Source of the DNA: Escherichia phage 4MG
Sequence record: NC_022968.1
Reading direction: 5' to 3' (one strand)
Length of the DNA stretch: 64,000 nt
Part shown: positions 4,145-35,453 of the stretch, in pieces
Layout: every line of letters begins with the position of its first letter
Numbering within the stretch: the stretch's first letter is position 1
Notes under the pieces: model-generated
What the model was told of the DNA's origin: nothing
Databases searched by the model: none
The model's input: only the letters and a program-made list of their open reading frames with translations
Made by a program: the position numbers and the translations under genes

Positions 4145-5827
4145 TTACAGTTGAGCGGCTGCTCGTTCACGAATCGTTGTCAGGTCTTCATCGACAATCA
4201 GTTTGCCGTTGTAGAACACACGACGCAGTTCGTTATCGTCAGACTGTACATCTTCAAGCTGACAATTGTCAATCAGTTCTAGCTGACCAAACATATTGCG
4301 AACAACCTTCAGGAAACCTTTTGCAGACTTCTTACCGAGGTCAGTCTTAGGTTCTTTGACAACCATGATCTGCTGACCATCAATAACCGCACCAGTTGCC
4401 TTCACAGCCATACCCAGTGAATCGCGGGTTGTGTACTGGGTAGTAAAGGAACCAACACCGTACACGATATTGCTGGATGCAAAGCCTTTATCTTTCAGAC
4501 GTTCAAAGATGTCTTTTGCACGAGCAACAGTGATAGAGTCACCGTAGATCAGGCCAACATGACTATCCAGAACTTTGTAACCCTTGGAGTTAACTTCACC
4601 ACCAAAGATTTCCCACAGACACTGGATTGCACCTTTGACTTCATGGTCTTGCAGATCGGAAGGCTCAAGATCAAGGTAATCCGTATCTTCATCGAATTCG
4701 ATGTTGTAATACTTACCTTTGACTGATACAACTTCACCTTTCTCGCTTTCCCATGCTGCGTCTTTGGCTTCAGACAGCGTTTCGAAATCACCAATATAAC
4801 GATACCCCGCAATGATATGTTCCGGAATGCCTGAATCAGGACGGAACACAACACGACCGTCACGAGCCATGATTTCTTCTTTCAGAATCAGTGCTGCACG
4901 GGTAATAATCGCCCAGAAGTCATAGCTGTCTGCTACGTAGGAAACAAAACCTTTCGGGAAAATTTCCGTGATGTAGCGTTTCAGGAATTCAACTTCAGCC
5001 AGGAAACGCAGTTCATCCAGGGACAAATCAGGATTTTCAGTTTTCAGGCGACCGACGATAAAGCCAATGTTAGTTGTTGCAACACTGTGTTCTGATGCAG
5101 GAATAGAACCAGCAACGAACTTACCTTTCATGTTGTAATAACGGTTCGCATACAGAATCGCAGGAATGGTATCTGTACCCATTGAGTTGATCAGTTGACC
5201 AAACTCACTCTGTGCCGCGTCGTGAGTACCAGATTCACCGCGATAAGCGAAGCAGTGGTTCTGGAACGGAACATGCAGGTTGTTATCACAAGTTTCGGCA
5301 GCGTATGCTTCAGACAGTTTGCGATACTGCCAGAAGGTAGTTGCAGTTGTGATGGTTTTCCATGTCTCTGCGGAGATCACGCTTTCCAGGAAGTTCGGCA
5401 ACCAGTAAAAATCAGGGTGCGTGTTCTGAATGGTGAACAGCGGAACCTGTACCGGGGACAGAGTGCCTTCAGGAATCGAACGGATTTCCAGTGGCAGGTA
5501 ACCAAGGTCATGCAGCTTTTCAAAGCCCCAGGTTTCAACCATGTCCGGGCCGATGCTCAGTTCACAAATTTCTTTGTACTGTGCGATAGCCGCTTTCTTT
5601 TTCATTTTGAAAAAGTTTTCGTTGAACAGGTCGATCAGGAACCATTTGATGAAACCTTGCAAGCCAGCCATCATCACACGCTGATCGTTATCAGCGAAGT
5701 GAATGAAGTGCTTTGCATTGCGTGGTGTCATGTTGTCCTGAACAATTTCAGAACGTCGGTCATACATGGAGATGTGTGAAGGTTTGTAAAAGTCAGCGAA
5801 TACGAGTGGGCTTTCTTTATGCAGCAT
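4145..5827 (-). CDS. nicotinamide phosphoribosyltransferase (NAMPT) family protein; candidate nicotinamide ADP-ribose transferase of an NAD+ reconstitution pathway
   Basis: 560-aa track ORF with AAGGAGA SD; NAMPT motif set FADFYKPSH, PLEIRSIPEGT, FTIQNTHPDFYWLPNF, AYRGESG, ASEHSVATT, VADSYDFW, FRPDSGIP. Confidence 0.88.
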   Translation of the reverse strand: MLHKESPLVFADFYKPSHISMYDRRSEIVQDNMTPRNAKHFIHFADNDQRVMMAGLQGFIKWFLIDLFNENFFKMKKKAAIAQYKEICELSIGPDMVETWGFEKLHDLGYLPLEIRSIPEGTLSPVQVPLFTIQNTHPDFYWLPNFLESVISAETWKTITTATTFWQYRKLSEAYAAETCDNNLHVPFQNHCFAYRGESGTHDAAQSEFGQLINSMGTDTIPAILYANRYYNMKGKFVAGSIPASEHSVATTNIGFIVGRLKTENPDLSLDELRFLAEVEFLKRYITEIFPKGFVSYVADSYDFWAIITRAALILKEEIMARDGRVVFRPDSGIPEHIIAGYRYIGDFETLSEAKDAAWESEKGEVVSVKGKYYNIEFDEDTDYLDLEPSDLQDHEVKGAIQCLWEIFGGEVNSKGYKVLDSHVGLIYGDSITVARAKDIFERLKDKGFASSNIVYGVGSFTTQYTTRDSLGMAVKATGAVIDGQQIMVVKEPKTDLGKKSAKGFLKVVRNMFGQLELIDNCQLEDVQSDDNELRRVFYNGKLIVDEDLTTIRERAAAQL

Positions 5828-5880
5828 GTTTTGTTTCTCCTTTGTGTGTTTTGATGGGGTGATTCTACACCCCGTTTCGT

Positions 5881-6414
5881 TTAGATGTCAAGTGAAAAAT
5901 CTAAAGATTTAGATTCTTCTGTTACAACCGTTGTTTCTTTAACCAGACGACAGCCTTTCACCTTGATTTCTTTGGCTGGTGACCACTTAGTCGCACGGAT
6001 ATAGAATGTGTTTGCACGAATAACCATGAACCGGGCTACATCTTCAGGTGGTTCCTCGTTAATAAAAATCGCAACACTTTCGTATGCAGGCCACTTCATA
6101 GGGTTTTCATCGGTAACATCGGAATGTATACCATTACCGTTGTTAGTGCGACCCGGTGTAGGCCAGATAGTACAAGGTCGATAGCAGGCGTGGTCATCAG
6201 GAACCTGAATAACGTGATTTTCTAACCACGAGCAAATTTTTTCCAGGTCAAAATCATAATGGTCTTCTTTCAGGTCTTCAATATCTGTACGATATTCAGC
6301 CCCAACACCACACTCACCGATTTGCCCGGTAATATGAGCGCACATGTCACGCTCAAAGTTTCCTGCGTATGAGTCAGTATCGACAACAAAAATAAAACGA
6401 GTTGATTCAGTCAT
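5881..6414 (-). CDS. hypothetical protein (177 aa) embedded between the NAMPT-like and Prs-like genes
   Basis: Track ORF; stop/start abuts 6414-7214; no motif recognised (no Nudix box, no P-loop). Confidence 0.5.
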   Translation of the reverse strand: MTESTRFIFVVDTDSYAGNFERDMCAHITGQIGECGVGAEYRTDIEDLKEDHYDFDLEKICSWLENHVIQVPDDHACYRPCTIWPTPGRTNNGNGIHSDVTDENPMKWPAYESVAIFINEEPPEDVARFMVIRANTFYIRATKWSPAKEIKVKGCRLVKETTVVTEESKSLDFSLDI

Positions 6415-7214
6415 TAAAAATTCTCCGTCCAGTCATGGTATGCGTAGATTTCATCAACCCCGCCATCGAGGATGATTTGTTTCCCGAATGAGAAAATGCC
6501 GTGCGTAACGTAAAGGATAACACGTTTTGCACCATTCTCTTTCAGGGCTTTAGCCAGGGCGATGAAGGTACGACCACCATCACAGATATCATCGACGACA
6601 ACGCATTCGCGTCCTTCAACATCACCAAAGATTGCTGTCCCCGTAATTTCGTTTGTTTTCAGGTCACGAACCTTACCAGCTTCAACCAGAGGGAGTCGCA
6701 TACGGTCGGCAACCTTCTGTGCCTTCTTGCGAGCGCCTGCGTCTGGTGCAACAATGGTCACATCTTTCCCGGCAAGTTGATCATGGAATTCTGCAACAAG
6801 AATCTCTTGTCCACGAATCTGAACATTGTCCAGCAGTGCAGCAGAAACATCACTGTGTGGGTCATCAACAATCACTTTGTCGAAGCCAAGCGAGTTGACG
6901 AGGTTTGCAAAAACCTTGATAGATAGTGACTGTCCAGGTTGCATCACGCGATCCTGACGGGCATACGGGATGTATGGCAGGTGCAGGGTAAACTCAGCAT
7001 GGTTATGCAGCCCTTCAAGACGGGAACATGCATCCACCAACATAGCTAATGCCATGACATCGGTGGAGTTTTTGATTTTTGCAGTGATATCGACGAAACC
7101 AATACCGCCTTTTGGGGCATGTTTCAGATCAATCTCAACCTGTTCCTCACCACCCTTGAAGGTGAAGTGGTTAACAGGCACTTCCAGTTTGTTCAAGCGT
7201 AATTCAATACTCAT
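6414..7214 (-). CDS. ribose-phosphate pyrophosphokinase (Prs) family protein; candidate ADP-ribose pyrophosphokinase
   Basis: 266-aa track ORF, AGGAGA SD; Prs motifs PYIPYARQDR and VVDDICDGGRTF, GAKRV; shorter than cellular Prs. Confidence 0.88.
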   Translation of the reverse strand: MSIELRLNKLEVPVNHFTFKGGEEQVEIDLKHAPKGGIGFVDITAKIKNSTDVMALAMLVDACSRLEGLHNHAEFTLHLPYIPYARQDRVMQPGQSLSIKVFANLVNSLGFDKVIVDDPHSDVSAALLDNVQIRGQEILVAEFHDQLAGKDVTIVAPDAGARKKAQKVADRMRLPLVEAGKVRDLKTNEITGTAIFGDVEGRECVVVDDICDGGRTFIALAKALKENGAKRVILYVTHGIFSFGKQIILDGGVDEIYAYHDWTENF

Positions 7215-17908: not shown

Positions 17909-18415
17909 ATGAGAGTAACTGATCAGCATGTTTTCTTCTTCACTTATCGTGATATGTTCAGCAACCACTTTCGACAGATAATTCCTATTCGTTGTGGTGG
18001 CTATGAGTTCTTCACGGTGGAGCACTTTATGATGTTCCAAAAAGCAATGCTCTTTGATGACAAAGAGATTGCTGCACGTATTGCCACAGTTGATAATCCA
18101 AACGAGGCAAAAGCGCTGGGTCGTAAAGTCAGGGACTTTGACAACAGTGTTTGGGAAGAAAACAGAATGGACATTGTAACAAACGGTCTTGTTCTGAAAA
18201 TGAAGGCTAACCGCTCTATTCTGGAGTCTGCACTGACTCACAGAGATGCTGGGCGGCGATTTGTAGAGGCATCCCCGTATGATGCAATCTGGGGTGTAAA
18301 ACTGAATGAATATGATCCACGCATTGATGATCCTGCTAACTGGCAAGGTCTTAATCTTCTCGGTGAGTGCTGGGAAAGAGCAATTGATGTTGTGATCGCA
18401 GCTTCGTGGAGGTGA
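17909..18415 (+). CDS. NADAR-domain (YbiA-like) protein
   Basis: 168 aa; motifs MFSNHF, TVEHFMMFQKA, DAIWGV, GLNLLGECWERA matching the YbiA/NADAR pattern. Confidence 0.75.
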   Translation: MRVTDQHVFFFTYRDMFSNHFRQIIPIRCGGYEFFTVEHFMMFQKAMLFDDKEIAARIATVDNPNEAKALGRKVRDFDNSVWEENRMDIVTNGLVLKMKANRSILESALTHRDAGRRFVEASPYDAIWGVKLNEYDPRIDDPANWQGLNLLGECWERAIDVVIAASWR

Positions 18416-30205: not shown

Positions 30206-30234
30206 TTGACAGTCGTCTAAAAACCATATAAGAT
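30206..30234 (+). promoter_or_regulatory. sigma70-like promoter TTGACA-N17-TAAGAT
   Basis: Hexamers read directly after redoxin stop; coordinates +/-2. Confidence 0.4.
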
Positions 30235-31442: not shown

Positions 31443-32243
31443 ATGGGAAGAAGCAAAGAGGCTCGTGCAACAAAACTGAGCGCCCGTCAACAGCAACGTG
31501 CTGAACGTCAGGCCGCTAGTCAGGCAAAGCACCACCCGAAATTCGATGAGGAACGAAAAAGCGCACCACCGCTAGTTGCTCTGAATGAAAAGCAGCAGGA
31601 TTACCTTCACAAGTTGCAGACATGCAACATTATCATCGCGAAGGGGATCTTCGGAACAGGTAAAACCTACCTTGCATCCGCTCATGCTGCCGACTTGCTG
31701 CGTAGAAACGAACTCGACAAGATCATTGTCGCTCGTCCATACGTGCAGACGGGTAAAACCTCCGGCTTCAAACCGGGTACTTCACTGGAAAAGCTGTTCC
31801 CTTACGTCCGAAATATGCTGGATACCATCCGTAAGCGTATGGGTGATGGGGCTTACTACAATGCCCTGAAGGACGGCTTGAATGGGCGTATCGAAGTTCA
31901 GGAACTGGAAAGCATCCGTGGTCGTTCATTCGACGAAAAGAGCTTCCTGCTGATCGACGAAGCGCAGCAGAGCACCCCGGAAGAAATGCTGAGTATCATC
32001 ACTCGTATTTCTGATAACTGTACGCTCGTAGTCATGGGTGATGCAAGTCAGAAAGATATTCATGGTCAGTCAGGCCTTGAATGGTTGATCGAGTTCACTC
32101 AGCGTCACAATCTTGCAGGCGTGGGATCTGTTTCCTTTGATGACCCGAATGAGGATATCGTTCGTGGTGGTATGGTTCGCGACATCGCTCTTGGCCTCAT
32201 GGCTGACCGCGAAGAGAAGCGCTATACCCCGATGGCTTCTTAA
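31443..32243 (+). CDS. phoH: PhoH-like ATPase
   Basis: 266 aa; Walker A GIFGTGKTY and PhoH-like layout. Confidence 0.7.
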   Translation: MGRSKEARATKLSARQQQRAERQAASQAKHHPKFDEERKSAPPLVALNEKQQDYLHKLQTCNIIIAKGIFGTGKTYLASAHAADLLRRNELDKIIVARPYVQTGKTSGFKPGTSLEKLFPYVRNMLDTIRKRMGDGAYYNALKDGLNGRIEVQELESIRGRSFDEKSFLLIDEAQQSTPEEMLSIITRISDNCTLVVMGDASQKDIHGQSGLEWLIEFTQRHNLAGVGSVSFDDPNEDIVRGGMVRDIALGLMADREEKRYTPMAS

Positions 32244-32253
32244 CAGGAGGATT

Positions 32254-32886
32254 ATGGCATATTACACTGGGGTAGGATCTCGCGAAACACCCCCAGAGGT
32301 TATCAGCGTCATGGAAGACGCTGCTTTCCGATTAGCAAGACTTGGATTCACACTGCGAAGTGGAAAAGCCGGGGGTGCTGATGAGGCATTTCAGGTAGGA
32401 ATGCAAAAATATTACGAATCTCTTGACAATGGAAAACAAGAAGAGTATCGTACACGCTTGGCAGAGATTTACATACCGTGGGACGGGTTTGCAGCAGATA
32501 ATGACAAGCTCTGGGATTATTGGGATTATCCTTTGAGTTATGTCGATTACCTAATGCCGGAGCAAAAAGTGGTCAGGGACTCACTGGTCGAGGAAATTCA
32601 TCCTAATTTCGAGGCACTTAAGAAGAAGCGTGGTGCTTTTGCACTTCACTCTCGCAACGTGCATCAGGTTTTGGGTGCAAATATTCTTGAGCCGCGCCCC
32701 TCTGCGTTTTGCCTGTACTATGCATCCGAGGATAAGCATGGTAATCCGAAAGGTGGTACGGCTACTGCGGTAAATCTTGCCAAAAAATATGGCGTGAGAA
32801 CGCTTAATCTAAACACTCCGGAGCGCTTGGCCTTACTTGAGCAGTTCCTGACCAATCTTGAGAGGAAAAGAGGTGTCCAGGTTTAG
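32254..32886 (+). CDS. DprA/Smf-like Rossmann (SLOG) domain protein
   Basis: About 210 aa; GVGSRETP ... RSGKAGGADEAFQVG matches DprA Rossmann-domain motifs; lacks DprA flanking domains. Confidence 0.45.
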   Translation: MAYYTGVGSRETPPEVISVMEDAAFRLARLGFTLRSGKAGGADEAFQVGMQKYYESLDNGKQEEYRTRLAEIYIPWDGFAADNDKLWDYWDYPLSYVDYLMPEQKVVRDSLVEEIHPNFEALKKKRGAFALHSRNVHQVLGANILEPRPSAFCLYYASEDKHGNPKGGTATAVNLAKKYGVRTLNLNTPERLALLEQFLTNLERKRGVQV

Positions 32887-33181
32887 AGATAAGCTGAATC
32901 AGTCCTATTGTCTCGTGAAATATGACAAAAAGGGCTGGGTTCTGGCTAAAAAGACAGGAAAACGGATTTATGTCACTGAAAGTAATGGTGAAATCCGCTA
33001 TATCTGCACCACAGATGATACTGACCAGTTCAAACATCTTACCGAGTCCTTGGAATATGAGTCAAGGAAGACCCTTGTAGTGGGTGATGTGGTGAGATTG
33101 GACAATTTTGGGCCATATCATGTGGTTGATTCCGGTTACCGTGGGGATGACGGTGAAGTGAAATATCTGATAGCTCGATAG
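32873..33181 (+). CDS. hypothetical protein (about 102 aa)
   Basis: GTG after GAGAGGAAAAGAG in frame of track ORF. Confidence 0.4.
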   Translation: MSRFRDKLNQSYCLVKYDKKGWVLAKKTGKRIYVTESNGEIRYICTTDDTDQFKHLTESLEYESRKTLVVGDVVRLDNFGPYHVVDSGYRGDDGEVKYLIAR

Positions 33182-33188
33182 GAGGAGT

Positions 33189-33671
33189 ATGACAGTTAGT
33201 ATTCATGGGGTTATCTCCCATCGAAAACTGATGGAGTTGAAGAATTGTGGGGTTGTTTCTCCGGGGCTGTTTGATGCTGAAGCGGAAAGCCTCTTCAATT
33301 TTTATCGTAAGGTTGTGGCTCAGTCTCTGTATGAGATGAACGATGGGTTCTTTACCCGAATGATTTATAACACTGCCGCAGCAGAACGCGATGCACGGTG
33401 GATGTTCCCGGATCGTCGTGATTTGCTGAATCACCTGATCTACCTGGATGGTAAATCCAAGTATGTGACTGTCGAAAAGGAAGAACTTGACAAGTTCACA
33501 ATGCTGCACACCGCAGCCGTAGCCTCTGAAAGGGCGAGAAAAGTTCTCGTGACATTCAAGTACAGCGACCAGGTACTTGTCGATGACGAAACAGGGTATT
33601 ACATCGACTGGCTGATGAAGAATGCATACATTCTGAAAGGCTATATTGCAAACGCTCGTGAGGAGGATTAA
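33189..33671 (+). CDS. hypothetical protein (160 aa)
   Basis: Track ORF. Confidence 0.45.
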   Translation: MTVSIHGVISHRKLMELKNCGVVSPGLFDAEAESLFNFYRKVVAQSLYEMNDGFFTRMIYNTAAAERDARWMFPDRRDLLNHLIYLDGKSKYVTVEKEELDKFTMLHTAAVASERARKVLVTFKYSDQVLVDDETGYYIDWLMKNAYILKGYIANAREED

Positions 33672-33672
33672 T

Positions 33673-34596
33673 ATGGAACAGAACAAGAACTTTTTCGGAA
33701 TGCCGGGATTCAGTGGCAACGTGTACAGCTACCCTGTCCACTCTCACGATCATGTTATCTACATTGATGACCTGTCATGGTTAGAAGATCATCAGGACCG
33801 CTTGCAGGTAATTCGCCAGGCATCTCCTGATGATACCATTCGTGTGGTAATTAACAGTCCTGGTGGGGTTGTTTCTATCGCAATGGCTTATGTAAGTGCT
33901 ATTCGTGAAAGCCAGGCGTCGATTGTTACCCACGCAGAAGGTAACGTGTGTTCTGCTGGTACTGTTCTGTGGCTTGCCTGTAAGGATCGCACGGTCTCTC
34001 CCCTGACTATGTTCATGTTCCACAACTACCAGGGCGGTACGTATGGTGACGGTGCAAACATGTACAGCCAGATTGCCTTTGAAAAGCACTACTTTGATCG
34101 CCTGATGGATACCTTCTACACCGGGGTTCTGACAGAGACTGAAATTGCTACGATCAAAGGTGGTGGTCAGGTGTGGATGGATGAAGTTGAGATCCTGAAG
34201 CGCACCCCAGCGGTTCTGCTCGATGAACGAAACATTAAGCGTATGCAAGAGGGGCAGCGTCCGATCATCTCCGGTGAGAAGCCGAAAGAAAAGACCGTGG
34301 TCGAGAATGTTGATCTGAATAACCTCCCTGAAGACGGCGTGCCAGAAAGCATTTTCCTGAGAATTGAAGTTGAGGGTGAGACCTTTAAGTTCGACGTATC
34401 GACTCTCCAGGCAAAAGACTTTGATCCTTTCAACGTTGCTGAACTGCAAACCATCTACTCTCAGATTGGTGCAATCGCCTCAGGGTCAGAGGAAGCCTTG
34501 ATTGTGAATACTCGAAACCGTCAGGACCTGATCGATGCGATTCTCGCCGCTTCTGAAGAGATTATGGCTGATGTGCTGGAGAAAATGGGGAAATAA
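33673..34596 (+). CDS. ClpP-like (S14 family) serine peptidase
   Basis: About 307 aa; VVINSPGGVVSIAMAYVSAI and CSAG nucleophile-like motif; C-terminal extension. Confidence 0.55.
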   Translation: MEQNKNFFGMPGFSGNVYSYPVHSHDHVIYIDDLSWLEDHQDRLQVIRQASPDDTIRVVINSPGGVVSIAMAYVSAIRESQASIVTHAEGNVCSAGTVLWLACKDRTVSPLTMFMFHNYQGGTYGDGANMYSQIAFEKHYFDRLMDTFYTGVLTETEIATIKGGGQVWMDEVEILKRTPAVLLDERNIKRMQEGQRPIISGEKPKEKTVVENVDLNNLPEDGVPESIFLRIEVEGETFKFDVSTLQAKDFDPFNVAELQTIYSQIGAIASGSEEALIVNTRNRQDLIDAILAASEEIMADVLEKMGK

Positions 34597-35388: not shown

Positions 35389-35393
35389 ATTAA

Positions 35394-35413
35394 CCCGCTT
35401 CGGCGGGTTTTTT
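35394..35413 (+). terminator. intrinsic terminator (CCCGCTTCGGCGGG + TTTTTT)
   Basis: UUCG tetraloop hairpin plus T-run right after stop at 35388. Confidence 0.6.
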
Positions 35414-35424
35414 CGTTTTTGTGC

Positions 35425-35453
35425 TTGACATCAATTTTACCGAGGATTATTAT
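35425..35453 (+). promoter_or_regulatory. sigma70-like promoter TTGACA-N17-TATTAT
   Basis: Hexamers read directly, just downstream of terminator; coordinates +/-2. Confidence 0.5.

What the first reader, a model, noticed from the sequence alone, without database searches (positions are those of the whole stretch)
32254..32886. Standalone DprA/SLOG-like Rossmann domain protein
Seen: about 210-aa ORF with GVGSRETP and SGKAGGADEAFQVG motifs typical of the DprA Rossmann domain, without the SAM or winged-helix domains of bacterial DprA. Established: SLOG-type Rossmann domains can bind nucleotides and nucleotide-derived ligands. Inference: it may bind ssDNA to aid recombination, or bind/process a nucleotide signal; its position right after phoH fits either.
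Basis: partly seen in the sequence, partly recalled or inferred. Interest (0 to 1): 0.45.

Follow-up and report, generated by a model that had tools for sequence, protein, structure and literature searches.

The report
Phage standalone DprA-like SLOG domain
This is a real, well-conserved phage gene for a small nucleotide-binding protein that looks like the core of the bacterial DNA-uptake protein DprA. It is already annotated as such in related phages, and its contexts tie it to the phage's NAD/ADP-ribose counter-defence genes more than to DNA recombination.

Summary
The ORF is real: 32254-32886 (+), 210 aa, with an AGGAGG ribosome-binding site 10 nt after the phoH stop. The window is a Seunavirus-like myovirus (Vequintavirinae). 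The orthologue GAP31_133 is already named "DprA-like DNA recombination-mediator protein" in RefSeq (PHROG 768, E 1e-61).

Both published DprA pocket motifs (G-S-R and L-x-x-R-N) are present and invariant. The Pfam DprA model scores below threshold. There is no SAM or winged-helix domain, and the LOG catalytic Glu is missing.

- **Size and spread:** about 5,800 clusters; 1,151 of 50,697 phage records carry it, always single copy. It behaves as an accessory gene.
- **Fusions:** relatives with the same invariant residues are fused to NADAR (5), DUF4326 (1) and a PD-(D/E)XK nuclease (1).
- **Neighbours:** standalone copies often lie near AdfM-like Macro, Prs-like and Nampt-like genes. None of the recurrent neighbour clusters I annotated was a recombinase.

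Most likely it binds or processes an NAD/ADP-ribose-derived nucleotide as part of phage counter-defence. That prediction was already made computationally (Iyer et al. 2022). The function is experimentally unknown. It is ordinary as a sighting and moderately interesting as a target.

The parts
32245..32250 (+). Shine-Dalgarno AGGAGG, 3 nt before the ATG
   Evidence: Read directly from the sequence.
32254..32886 (+). CDS of the 210-aa standalone DprA-like SLOG-domain protein (PHROG 768; orthologue of GAP31_133 / PVP-SE1 gp148)
32266..32292 (+). Strand 1 plus loop T-G-V-G-S-R-E-T-P (residues 5-13). G6, G8, S9 and R10 are invariant. This equals the DprA 'G-S/T/A-R' pocket-lid motif.
32350..32400 (+). 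Strand 2 plus loop/helix T-L-R-S-G-K-A-G-G-A-D-E-A-F-Q-V-G (residues 33-49). This equals DprA 'SGxAxGIDxxAH'. R35, G37, A39, G41, D43, A45, F46 and G49 are invariant.
32461..32481 (+). Strand 3 A-E-I-Y-I-P-W (residues 70-76). W76 is invariant; E71, I72, Y73 and P75 are nearly invariant.
32482..32628 (+). Family-specific, mostly helical insert (residues 77-125), variable in length between clades. It ends in the conserved H116-P.
32644..32676 (+). Helix L-H-S-R-N-V-H-Q-V-L-G (residues 131-141). This equals the DprA 'F/L/Y-x-x-R-N/D' base-pocket motif. H132, R134, N135, Q138 and G141 are invariant in alignment A1.
32749..32769 (+). K-G-G-T-A-T-A loop (residues 166-172). It is positionally equivalent to DprA 'SGSLxTA' and LOG 'PGGxGTxxE', but the position of the LOG catalytic Glu is N174 and is variable.
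31443..32243 (+). Context: PhoH-like ATPase immediately upstream (10-nt gap), probably the same transcript
32873..33181 (+). Context: 102-aa ORF of unknown function (phrog_5456) whose GTG start overlaps the SLOG gene end by 14 nt. Conserved only in close relatives.
33673..34596 (+). Context: ClpP-like protease, a recurrent neighbour (9 of 40 lineages)
17909..18415 (+). Context, same genome: standalone NADAR protein (PF08719, E 6e-34), 14 kb upstream. This is the domain fused to this SLOG family in other proteins.
4145..7214 (-). Context, same genome: NAPRTase/Nampt-like gene (4145-5827) and Prs-like gene (6414-7214), i.e. NAD+ salvage/reconstitution genes. The same two families lie within 10 kb of the SLOG gene in 4 and 6 of 40 other lineages.

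Best explanation
The gene encodes an accessory (non-core) phage protein that is a single SLOG-superfamily Rossmann domain of a phage-rich, DprA-like clade (PHROG 768).

Shown:
- The fold.
- A pocket built from the invariant residues G-S-R10, R35-S-G-x-A-x-G-x-D43, P75-W76, L-H-x-R134-N135-x-x-Q138 and G-G-T169.
- The same residues are kept when the domain is fused to NADAR, DUF4326 or a nuclease.

Inferred: the pocket takes up one nucleotide or base moiety. The natural ligand is an NAD+/ADP-ribose-derived nucleotide made during host immunity, such as a cyclic-ADPR-type signal or another ADPr derivative. The protein would bind it and probably cleave or hand it on. It would then work alongside the phage's other ADP-ribose tools (NADAR, Macro/AdfM-like, Nampt/Prs NAD+ reconstitution) to blunt NAD-centred defence. 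On this view it is not a RecA loader for recombination.

Whether it is an enzyme or only a binder is open. The very high conservation of polar pocket residues suggests catalysis or very specific recognition, but the LOG-type catalytic glutamate is absent.

For: **Pocket.** There are 21 invariant columns among 55 sequences down to 36% identity.

**Fusions.** Among the 20 longest of the 150 best representatives:
- NADAR in five: P0125, P0131, P0132, P0191, P0248.
- DUF4326 in one: P0219.
- DUF7831 in one: P0253.
- The two roughly 1,480-aa polyvalent proteins also carry YAcAr and LDcluster4 SLOG domains.
- All fused copies keep the family's invariant residues.

**Neighbourhoods.** I took 80 IMG/VR loci, giving 40 groups at 60% identity. 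Counts within 10 kb: a Tk.4/AdfM-like Macro protein in 8 (5 within 3 kb; Pfam-confirmed), Prs-like in 6, Nampt-like in 4, NADAR in 1. At least one of these occurs in 11 of 40. The base rate of that Macro family is 2,914 of 50,697 phage records.

**This genome.** The window itself carries NADAR, Prs-like and Nampt-like genes. The close relative GAP31 adds NMNAT, PnuC and a Macro-like 'phosphatase'.

**Accessory status.** The gene is absent from the PhoH-ClpP slot of Bas54. In the T4-like phage Aes508 it sits in the plastic nrdH-gp55 region.

**Literature.**
- Iyer et al. 2022 (PMC9503650) found viral SLOG domains fused or linked to Macro, NADAR and DUF4326, co-occurring more than chance, and predicted ADPr-derivative sensing or processing.
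- A different standalone phage SLOG (DruSM1 ORF83, YAcAr family) scored as anti-Avs type III in a knockout screen. It is predicted to bind AMP and to lack DprA dimer and RecA-binding residues.
Against: - No ligand, binding or activity was tested for any member of this family.
- The closest solved fold, and the only Pfam or PDB sequence signal, is DprA, a DNA binder.
- NADAR and Tk.4/AdfM-like Macro enzymes have demonstrated or inferred substrates on ADP-ribosylated DNA, not soluble signals. The fusions therefore fit a DNA-centred role equally well.
- In this window the gene is 14 kb from NADAR. Its immediate neighbours (PhoH, ClpP-like, two unknowns) say nothing about NAD.
- 29 of 40 lineages show none of the NAD/ADPr genes within 10 kb.
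- The neighbourhood enrichment has no phylogeny-corrected control. My attempt at a PhoH-anchored control failed.
- The LOG catalytic Glu is not conserved, so a LOG-like hydrolysis mechanism is unsupported.
Confidence: 0.45

Rival explanations
1. DNA-centred ADP-ribose reading. The domain keeps DprA's ability to hold ssDNA by flipping one base into its pocket. It would recognise ssDNA or an ADP-ribosylated base, shielding phage ssDNA from DarT-type ADP-ribosyltransferases or presenting modified bases to NADAR or Macro hydrolases.
For: - DprA is the nearest solved fold.
- Both motifs shown by mutagenesis to bind ssDNA in HpDprA (G-S-R and F/L/Y-x-x-R-N) are invariant here.
- The fusion and neighbour partners are exactly the two enzyme families shown or inferred to strip ADP-ribose from DNA. 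These are NADAR, including a Vequintavirinae NADAR that counters DarTG1, and Tk.4/AdfM Macro against DarTG2.
- There is a bacterial fusion to a PD-(D/E)XK nuclease.
- Iyer et al. list sporadic fusions to HNH, exonuclease and helicase domains.
Against: - T4 AdfN and AdfM work without any SLOG partner.
- The G-[SG]-R and R-N motifs also occur in the YAcAr-type SLOG Seurat gp80, the ORF83 homologue, which is predicted to bind AMP. They are therefore not specific to DNA binders.
- High-affinity ssDNA binding by DprA needs a dimer with two pockets, and dimerisation could not be tested here.
- The protein in this window is slightly acidic (pI 6.45).
- Polyvalent proteins carrying three different SLOG families fit several small ligands better than redundant DNA binding.
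Confidence: 0.2
2. Classical DprA-like recombination mediator. The protein binds phage ssDNA and loads host RecA (or a phage recombinase) to support recombination-dependent replication. This is what the database name 'DprA-like DNA recombination-mediator protein' implies.
For: - The PHROG and RefSeq name.
- The DprA fold and pocket motifs.
- 30 of 55 family members touch Pfam PF02481 at E<0.01.
- The jumbo-phage survey of Iyer et al. 2021 suggested phage DprA/Smf could act as an extra ssDNA-binding protein.
Against: - The name comes from homology only.
- The Pfam match is below the gathering score and covers only residues 7-46. hhalign to E. coli Smf aligns 38 columns with 9.7% probability.
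- There is no SAM or winged-helix domain.
- None of the recurrent neighbour clusters I annotated was a recombinase, SSB or annealase.
- No RecA/UvsX/SSB is annotated in GAP31.
- The gene is dispensable by distribution: absent from Bas54 at the same locus, and present as an accessory gene in a plastic region of the T4-like phage Aes508; from general knowledge, not a tool result, T4-like phages already carry UvsX/UvsY.
- The fusions are to ADP-ribose enzymes, not to recombination proteins.
Confidence: 0.13
3. LOG-like nucleotide phosphoribohydrolase used for nucleotide-pool remodelling. It would cleave a (d)NMP into base plus ribose-5-phosphate, as part of the phage nucleotide-metabolism module.
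For: - It lies in a module with RNR, glutaredoxin, ThyX and, in other phages, dCMP deaminase (6 of 40), NrdD and MazG-like genes.
- EVADES proposes this activity for the YAcAr-type ORF83.
Against: - The defining LOG motif PGGxGTxxE is not met. The Glu position is N174 and is variable.
- The fold is nearer to DprA than to LOG.
- There is no Pfam Lysine_decarbox hit.
Confidence: 0.1
4. Antitoxin mimic. The phage copy imitates the DprA-like antitoxins ShosA or PsyrA and neutralises the ShosT or PsyrT toxins of those defence systems.
For: - Weak PADLOC hits to ShosA and PsyrA (E about 0.02, residues 7-45).
- Phages do carry orphan antitoxin-like genes; AdfN is an example.
Against: - The hits cover only the shared SLOG motif region and are not significant.
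- ShosA needs its SAM domain for stability, and needs dimerisation, ssDNA binding and RecA binding to neutralise ShosT. It does not bind ShosT directly.
- The phage protein lacks the SAM domain and ShosA's extra C-terminal helix.
Confidence: 0.04

Closest known systems
Bacterial DprA/Smf Rossmann domain (Pfam PF02481; H. pylori 4LJK/4LJR, R. palustris 3MAJ, S. pneumoniae 3UQZ)
   Different: - Sequence similarity is detectable only over about 40 residues and is below the Pfam cut-off.
- There are no SAM or winged-helix domains.
- A roughly 50-residue helical insert replaces the DprA segment between strand 3 and the RN helix.
- There are extra family-specific invariant residues (E71, W76, H116, Q138).
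- It is phage-borne and accessory, and is fused or linked to ADP-ribose enzymes rather than to competence or recombination genes.
PHROG 768 / RefSeq 'DprA-like DNA recombination-mediator protein' (e.g. GAP31_133, PVP-SE1 gp148, phAPEC8, PAK_P1, Aes508 gp050)
   Same: It is a full-length member (E 1e-61). The locus has 90% nucleotide identity to GAP31. Gene order is the same: lysin-PhoH-SLOG-x-x-ClpP-MTase.
   Different: Nothing differs structurally. The family name is a homology-derived label with no experimental basis that I could find.
Viral SLOG domains of the NAD+-ADPr network (Iyer, Burroughs, Anantharaman, Aravind 2022, PMC9503650)
   Same: The signature is the same. They are mostly standalone, occur in medium and large phages, and have fusions or neighbourhoods with NADAR, Macro and DUF4326.
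DruSM1 ORF83 / Seurat gp80 (YAcAr, PF10686): standalone phage SLOG reported as anti-Avs type III
   Same: It is a small standalone phage SLOG domain with analogous G-[GS]-R, GxAxGxD, R-N and GGxGT motifs. It was also first labelled 'Smf/DprA'.
   Different: It belongs to a different SLOG family: my family HMM does not detect it even at E<=10. It is about 130 aa with no helical insert. No defence phenotype is known for the family studied here.
ThsA SLOG domain (Thoeris) and LOG phosphoribohydrolases
   Different: There is no SIR2 or other effector domain. The LOG catalytic Glu is absent. ThsA ligand-contact residues were not compared.
ShosA / PsyrA DprA-like antitoxins
   Different: ShosA has an N-terminal SAM domain and a C-terminal dimerisation helix, and acts through ssDNA and RecA. 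The phage protein has neither extension.

Membership tests
SLOG superfamily (Smf/DprA-LOG Rossmannoid) | Three-layer alpha/beta Rossmann-like fold with the ligand pocket formed by the loops after strands 1, 2 and 3 and the following helices | tested here: met
DprA/Smf (PF02481) | Scores above the Pfam gathering threshold for DNA_processg_A | tested here: not met
   The score is 14.9 bits against a 29.6 cut-off, E 0.016, residues 7-46 only. 30 of 55 family members hit at E<0.01, but every PF02481 match listed for the query and the 20 relatives scanned is below the cut-off. The profile against PDB gives 3MAJ at E 0.07.
DprA/Smf (PF02481) | 'G-S/T/A-R' motif in the loop after the first pocket strand (HpDprA G50-R52; PMC3950713) | tested here: met
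   G8-S9-R10 is invariant in 55 sequences. Caveat: a G-G-R equivalent also occurs in a YAcAr SLOG.
DprA/Smf (PF02481) | 'F/L/Y-x-x-R-N/D' motif in the pocket helix (HpDprA F140-N144) | tested here: met
   L131-H-S-R134-N135; R134 and N135 are invariant. Caveat: R-N is also present in Seurat gp80, a YAcAr SLOG.
DprA/Smf (PF02481) | Flanking SAM (N-terminal) and/or winged-helix (C-terminal) domains, found in most but not all DprA proteins | tested here: not met
   The protein is 210 aa and a single domain. No further Pfam hit appears at E<=10.
DprA/Smf (PF02481) | Homodimerisation through the C-terminal face, and direct RecA binding | not testable with these tools
   No multimer prediction and no model coordinates were available. 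EVADES reports absence of these residues for a different phage SLOG, not for this family.
DprA/Smf (PF02481) | ssDNA binding | not testable with these tools
   This needs EMSA or MST. The pI of this protein is 6.45 and the family median is 8.4, which is uninformative.
DprA/Smf (PF02481) | Genomic or functional association with competence or recombination machinery | tested here: not met
   None of the recurrent neighbour clusters I annotated across 40 lineages was a recombinase, SSB or annealase. Distribution is that of an accessory gene.
LOG (PF03641, cytokinin riboside 5'-monophosphate phosphoribohydrolase) | P-G-G-x-G-T-x-x-E motif with a catalytic Glu | tested here: not met
   Here the sequence is K166-G-G-T-A-T-A-V-N174. 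The Glu position is N/K/S/A and variable in the alignment. There is no Pfam LOG hit.
PHROG 768 | Full-length significant match to the family profile | tested here: met
   E 1e-61, residues 1-207 on profile positions 3-187 of 191.
YAcAr / DUF2493 SLOG (PF10686; includes the anti-Avs ORF83 homologue) | Match to PF10686, or mutual HMM detection with Seurat gp80 | tested here: not met
   There is no PF10686 hit for the query. The family HMM finds nothing in Seurat gp80 at E<=10, whereas gp80 hits PF10686 at 5e-18.
Viral ADPr-network SLOG (Iyer et al. 2022) | Fusion or conserved neighbourhood with Macro, NADAR or DUF4326 in relatives | tested here: met
   NADAR fusions in 5 proteins and a DUF4326 fusion in 1, all with conserved pocket residues. 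Macro lies within 10 kb in 8 of 40 lineages.
Viral ADPr-network SLOG (Iyer et al. 2022) | Binding or processing of an ADP-ribose derivative | not testable with these tools
   This has not been tested experimentally for any member, to my knowledge.
ShosA / PsyrA antitoxins | Significant PADLOC model match, plus the SAM domain and a partner toxin gene | tested here: not met
   E 0.019 and 0.022 over residues 7-45 only. There is no SAM domain and no PRTase or RecQ-like neighbour.

The most novel reading that the evidence does not exclude
The DprA-like SLOG domain is a previously unrecognised third component of phage defence against DNA ADP-ribosylation or NAD-derived signalling. One version is a base-flipping reader of ssDNA or ADP-ribosylated bases that cooperates with NADAR (AdfN-type) and Macro (AdfM-type) hydrolases. 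The other is a sponge or hydrolase for a TIR/Thoeris- or Avs-linked nucleotide signal. Either would make PHROG 768 (about 2% of sequenced phages) a widespread anti-defence family that is misnamed as a recombination mediator.
Probability: 0.3. Interest if true: 0.65.

Novelty: already known. Interest (0 to 1): 0.3.

Why it matters
As a sighting it is ordinary. The orthologue already carries this very annotation in RefSeq, and viral standalone SLOG domains were catalogued in 2022.

It matters for two reasons:

- **The database name is probably misleading.** 'DNA recombination-mediator protein' is a homology-derived label, and the fusions and neighbourhoods point elsewhere.
- **The family is large and untested.** It occurs in 1,151 of 50,697 phage records and about 5,800 sequence clusters, and no member has been studied experimentally.

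Its fusion partners (NADAR, DUF4326) and neighbours (AdfM-like Macro, NAD+ reconstitution genes) are the modules recently shown to defeat DarTG and NAD-depletion immunity. A different standalone phage SLOG has just been reported as anti-Avs. A cheap knockout-plus-defence-library experiment could therefore assign a counter-defence function to a widespread phage gene. It could also clarify what the ancestral DprA pocket recognises.

Tried and rejected
1. **NCBIfam:** no hit at E<=10.
2. **Single-sequence PDB search:** only a chance ACE hit. The profile search gives DprA 3MAJ at E 0.07 over 41 residues.
3. **hhalign of the family against E. coli Smf:** only 38 columns, 9.7% probability. The motif-by-motif correspondence beyond residue 46 rests on structure and manual reading.
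4. **PhoH-anchored control set for the neighbourhood statistics:** the PhoH alignment was too diverse for the locus finder, so enrichment is judged only against base rates.
5. **afdb50 fold library:** unavailable. BFVD gave only uncharacterised phage homologues such as phi92 gp047.
6. **Bacterial genome scan:** only 19 loci, mostly MAGs, with heterogeneous and probably mobile-element contexts and no defence-island signature. Some long 'fusions' were artefacts of my longest-ORF caller in GC-rich DNA. One real SLOG-PD-(D/E)XK fusion was confirmed.
7. **Bas54 HIDEN-SEQ supplements:** Bas54 lacks the gene, so there are no essentiality data.
8. **Literature searches** for an experimental study of a phage DprA-like or SLOG protein of this family found none.
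9. **DruSM1 ORF83 membership:** I considered whether it belongs to this family and rejected that. Its Seurat homologue is YAcAr and is not detected by the family HMM.
10. **The TTG start at 32113** was rejected in favour of ATG 32254.
11. **Promoter and terminator scan:** counts are not above shuffles. Only the positions of the best sites (30206 and 35392/35425) are suggestive.
Full report
**1. Observation**

The ORF is there as described. The ATG is at 32254 and the TAG at 32884-32886, giving 210 codons. AGGAGG at 32245-32250 precedes it, and the gene starts 10 nt after the stop of the upstream gene.

The mechanical ORF list extends it to a TTG at 32113 inside the upstream gene. All 55 aligned homologues start M-x-x-Y-T-G at the ATG, so 32254 is the start. 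The two quoted motifs are present and fall on invariant columns of the family. The upstream gene is a PhoH-like ATPase (PF02562, E 5e-46).

**2. Source of the window**

The 3.6-kb region is 92% identical to Enterobacter phage EC152 and 90% identical to Cronobacter phage GAP31 (Vequintavirinae, Seunavirus). Gene order is the same: endolysin, PhoH, this gene, two small unknowns, ClpP-like protease, DNA methyltransferase.

In RefSeq the orthologue GAP31_133 is already called 'DprA-like DNA recombination-mediator protein'. That name comes from PHROG 768, which the protein matches end to end (E 1e-61).

**3. Fold and family**

Sequence-only evidence for DprA is thin:

| Search | Result |
|---|---|
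| Pfam PF02481 | 14.9 bits against a 29.6 cut-off, residues 7-46 only |
| NCBIfam | nothing |
| PADLOC ShosA / PsyrA | E about 0.02 on the same 40 residues |
| Family profile against PDB sequences | DprA 3MAJ at E 0.07 |
| hhalign against E. coli Smf | 38 columns aligned |

With a 55-sequence alignment, AlphaFold2 gives a very confident single-domain model (pLDDT 95.2, pTM 0.90).

- Foldseek puts H. pylori DprA on top (E 2e-5).

The protein is therefore a bona fide SLOG-superfamily domain. It is closest to DprA, but only by a small margin.

Reading E. coli Smf next to it, the motifs correspond one by one:

| E. coli Smf | This protein |
|---|---|
| VVGSR | GVGSR |
| SGLARGIDGVAH | SGKAGGADEAFQ |
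| IAVLGNG | EIYIPW |
| FPRRNRIISGL | LHSRNVHQVLG |
| SGSLVTA | GGTATA |

The H. pylori DprA-ssDNA study showed that a thymine is flipped into a small pocket made by R52 (G-S-R), Y108, F140, R143, N144 and G164. It proposed 'G-S/T/A-R' and 'F/L/Y-x-x-R-N/D' as DprA signatures (PMC3950713). Both are present and invariant here (G8-S9-R10 and L131-x-x-R134-N135).

Differences from DprA:

- There are no SAM or winged-helix domains.
- A roughly 50-residue, mostly helical insert (residues 77-125) sits between strand 3 and the RN helix.
- There are additional family-specific invariant or near-invariant residues: E71, W76, H116, H132, Q138.
- The LOG signature PGGxGTxxE is not met. The Glu position is N174 and varies.

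**4. Size and spread of the family**

- A full HMM scan of 1.84 billion representatives finds 5,778 clusters at E<=1e-3 and 1,872 at E<=1e-30.
- tblastn finds the gene in 1,151 of 50,697 phage records, always as one copy. The phages are very diverse: Vequintavirinae, Stephanstirmvirinae (phAPEC8), Pakpunavirus, Otagovirus, T4-like Straboviridae, an N4-like Sulfitobacter phage, Rhizobium and Vibrio phages, and jumbo phages.
- BFVD structural neighbours are the same uncharacterised phage proteins, for example phi92 gp047.
- The gene behaves as accessory. The Vequintavirus Bas54 has PhoH, a 103-aa ORF and ClpP with no SLOG gene. In the T4-like phage Aes508 it lies in the plastic nrdH-gp55 region.
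- Only 19 loci turned up in the bacterial species set with the narrow patterns used. They were mostly MAGs with heterogeneous contexts.

**5. Contextual evidence on function**

*Fusions.* I scanned the 20 longest of the 150 best representatives.

- Five carry a NADAR domain: P0132, P0191, P0248 and the roughly 1,480-aa polyvalent proteins P0125 and P0131. The polyvalent proteins also contain YAcAr and LDcluster4 SLOG domains.
- One carries DUF4326 (P0219) and one carries DUF7831 (P0253).
- A bacterial copy is fused to a PD-(D/E)XK nuclease.
- All these fused domains keep the family's invariant residues; only H132 alternates with Q. What the fusions imply should therefore hold for the standalone form.

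*Neighbourhoods.* I called ORFs in 80 IMG/VR loci (+/-10 kb), clustered them, and dereplicated the loci into 40 groups at 60% SLOG identity. Recurrent neighbours within 10 kb:

| Neighbour | Groups of 40 |
|---|---|
| PhoH | 15 |
| Metallophosphoesterase | 10 |
| ClpP-like | 9 |
| Macro-domain protein (5 within 3 kb; PF01661 confirmed) | 8 |
| Prs-like | 6 |
| dCMP deaminase | 6 |
| Nampt-like | 4 |
| NADAR | 1 |

At least one of Macro, Prs, Nampt or NADAR occurs in 11 of 40 groups. None of the recurrent clusters I annotated was a recombinase, SSB or annealase; many ORFs were left unannotated.

The Macro protein is a homologue of T4 Tk.4 (34% identity to the T2 copy, E 1e-15). It occurs in 2,914 of 50,697 phage records. 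Finding it within 10 kb in 20% of lineages is therefore well above a naive expectation. I could not build a phylogeny-aware control.

*The same genome.* The window carries a standalone NADAR (17909-18415; PF08719, E 6e-34), a Prs-like gene (6414-7214, minus strand) and a NAPRTase/Nampt-like gene (4145-5827, minus strand). GAP31 additionally has NMNAT, PnuC and a Macro-like 'phosphatase', and no annotated RecA, UvsX or SSB.

**6. Literature**

- Iyer, Burroughs, Anantharaman and Aravind (2022, PMC9503650) surveyed viral NAD+-ADPr systems. They reported that viral SLOG domains are mostly standalone and are fused or linked to Macro, NADAR and DUF4326. These domains co-occur with Macro, NADAR and Nudix more than chance. 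The authors predicted that the SLOG domains sense or cleave ADPr-derived signals, and stated that this is experimentally uncharacterised.
- Since then, phage NADARs have been shown to reverse guanine ADP-ribosylation of DNA by DarT1. This includes a Vequintavirinae NADAR from Bas60 (PMC11257639).
- T4 Tk.4 was named AdfM, an anti-DarTG2 macrodomain (preprint 10.1101/2025.11.20.689424).
- A knockout screen of phage DruSM1 found that ORF83, annotated 'Smf/DprA', is needed against Avs type III (preprint 10.1101/2024.04.14.589459).
- The EVADES preprint predicts that ORF83 binds AMP and lacks DprA dimerisation and RecA-contact residues.
- I checked whether ORF83 belongs to this family. Its Seurat homologue gp80 matches the quoted residues exactly (R89, N90, T112, D114), belongs to Pfam YAcAr (E 5e-18), and is not detected by my family HMM. 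It is a precedent, not a relative.
- gp80 does carry G-G-R, GxAxGxD, R-N and GGxGT motifs. The 'DprA ssDNA motifs' are therefore shared more widely within SLOG and cannot by themselves prove DNA binding.
- ShosA, the DprA-like antitoxin, needs its SAM domain, dimerisation, ssDNA binding and RecA binding (PMC12961424). The phage protein lacks the SAM domain and the extra helix.

**7. Interpretation**

*Shown:*

- A real, conserved, single-domain SLOG protein of a DprA-like clade.
- A strictly conserved pocket.
- Accessory distribution.
- Repeated fusion or linkage to ADP-ribose-processing and NAD+-salvage genes.
- No linkage to recombination genes among the neighbours I annotated.

*Inferred (confidence about 0.45):* the pocket binds, and perhaps cleaves, an NAD+/ADP-ribose-derived nucleotide. 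The protein would be part of the phage's counter-defence toolkit.

*Main rival (0.2):* it is DNA-centred and reads ssDNA or ADP-ribosylated bases in cooperation with NADAR or Macro. I cannot separate this rival from the best explanation by computation, because the partner enzymes act on ADP-ribosylated DNA.

*Other rivals:*

| Reading | Confidence |
|---|---|
| Classical RecA-loading (what the database name implies) | 0.13 |
| LOG-like nucleotide hydrolase in pool remodelling | 0.10 |
| ShosA/PsyrA antitoxin mimic | 0.04 |

**8. Transcription**

The best promoter-like site upstream is at 30206-30234. A strong terminator at 35392-35409 is followed at once by an 11/12 promoter at 35425-35453. 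This suggests one unit from about 30.2 to 35.4 kb that contains the lysin, PhoH, this gene, two unknowns, the ClpP-like gene and the methyltransferase. Site counts are not above shuffled controls, so this is weak evidence.

**9. Verdict**

Of the two functional options, the nucleotide-ligand one is better supported than recombination.

The gene is not new. Its orthologue already carries this annotation, and the family's link to ADP-ribose systems was published in 2022. What remains open, and is worth a simple experiment, is what the pocket binds and which host defence, if any, it defeats.

Noticed in passing
window 17909-18415 (+): A standalone NADAR-domain protein (PF08719, E 6e-34). A Vequintavirinae NADAR (Bas60) has been shown to neutralise DarT1 and DarTG1, so this is probably an AdfN-type anti-DarT factor.
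   Followed up: partly
window 4145-5827 (-) and 6414-7214 (-): A NAPRTase/Nampt-like gene and a ribose-phosphate pyrophosphokinase-like gene, with a small ORF between them. This resembles the phage NAD+ reconstitution pathways (NARP type). GAP31 also encodes NMNAT and a PnuC-like transporter elsewhere.
   Followed up: partly
window 32873-33181 (+): A 102-aa ORF (phrog_5456, unknown function; no Pfam hit) whose GTG start overlaps the end of the SLOG gene by 14 nt, suggesting translational coupling. It is conserved next to the SLOG gene only in close relatives.
   Followed up: partly
window 33189-33671 (+): A 160-aa ORF of unknown function (phrog_7224, E 6e-82; no Pfam hit) between the SLOG gene and the ClpP-like gene.
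   Followed up: no
window 35392-35453 (+): A strong intrinsic-terminator-like hairpin (AACCCGC-TTCG-GCGGGTT followed by a T run), then 16 nt later a near-consensus promoter (TTGACA-17-TATTAT). This is a likely boundary between two transcription units.
   Followed up: no
window 33646-34596 (+): The ClpP-like protease (PF00574 on residues 43-133 only) has a roughly 170-residue C-terminal extension with no domain hit. ClpP-like genes recur near the SLOG gene in 9 of 40 phage lineages.
   Followed up: no
P0125 and P0131 (proteins of about 1,480 aa from the representative search): Polyvalent-type giant proteins that combine this DprA-like SLOG domain, a YAcAr SLOG, an LDcluster4 SLOG and a C-terminal NADAR domain. 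That is three different SLOG families in one polypeptide.
   Followed up: partly
L096 7959-9236 (Armatimonadota MAG): A bacterial protein that fuses this SLOG family to a C-terminal PD-(D/E)XK (Cas4/RecB-like) nuclease domain (PF12705, E 5e-10).
   Followed up: partly
L106 5561-7000 (Aeromonas phage Aes508 gp049): In this T4-like phage the SLOG gene overlaps by 4 nt a 479-aa downstream gene with no Pfam match. It could be a lineage-specific partner.
   Followed up: partly
L002 11540-12340 (Logan contig SRR30535871_46735): A phage contig with a distant SLOG homologue also encodes a SIR2-family protein about 5 kb downstream, as well as PhoH, a proteasome-like protein and a metallophosphatase.
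   Followed up: no
P0001: The 99%-identical database protein is labelled 'hypothetical protein [Staphylococcus haemolyticus]' by NCBI, although it sits on 148-kb enterobacterial-phage-like contigs. This is probably a mislabelled or contaminated assembly.
   Followed up: no
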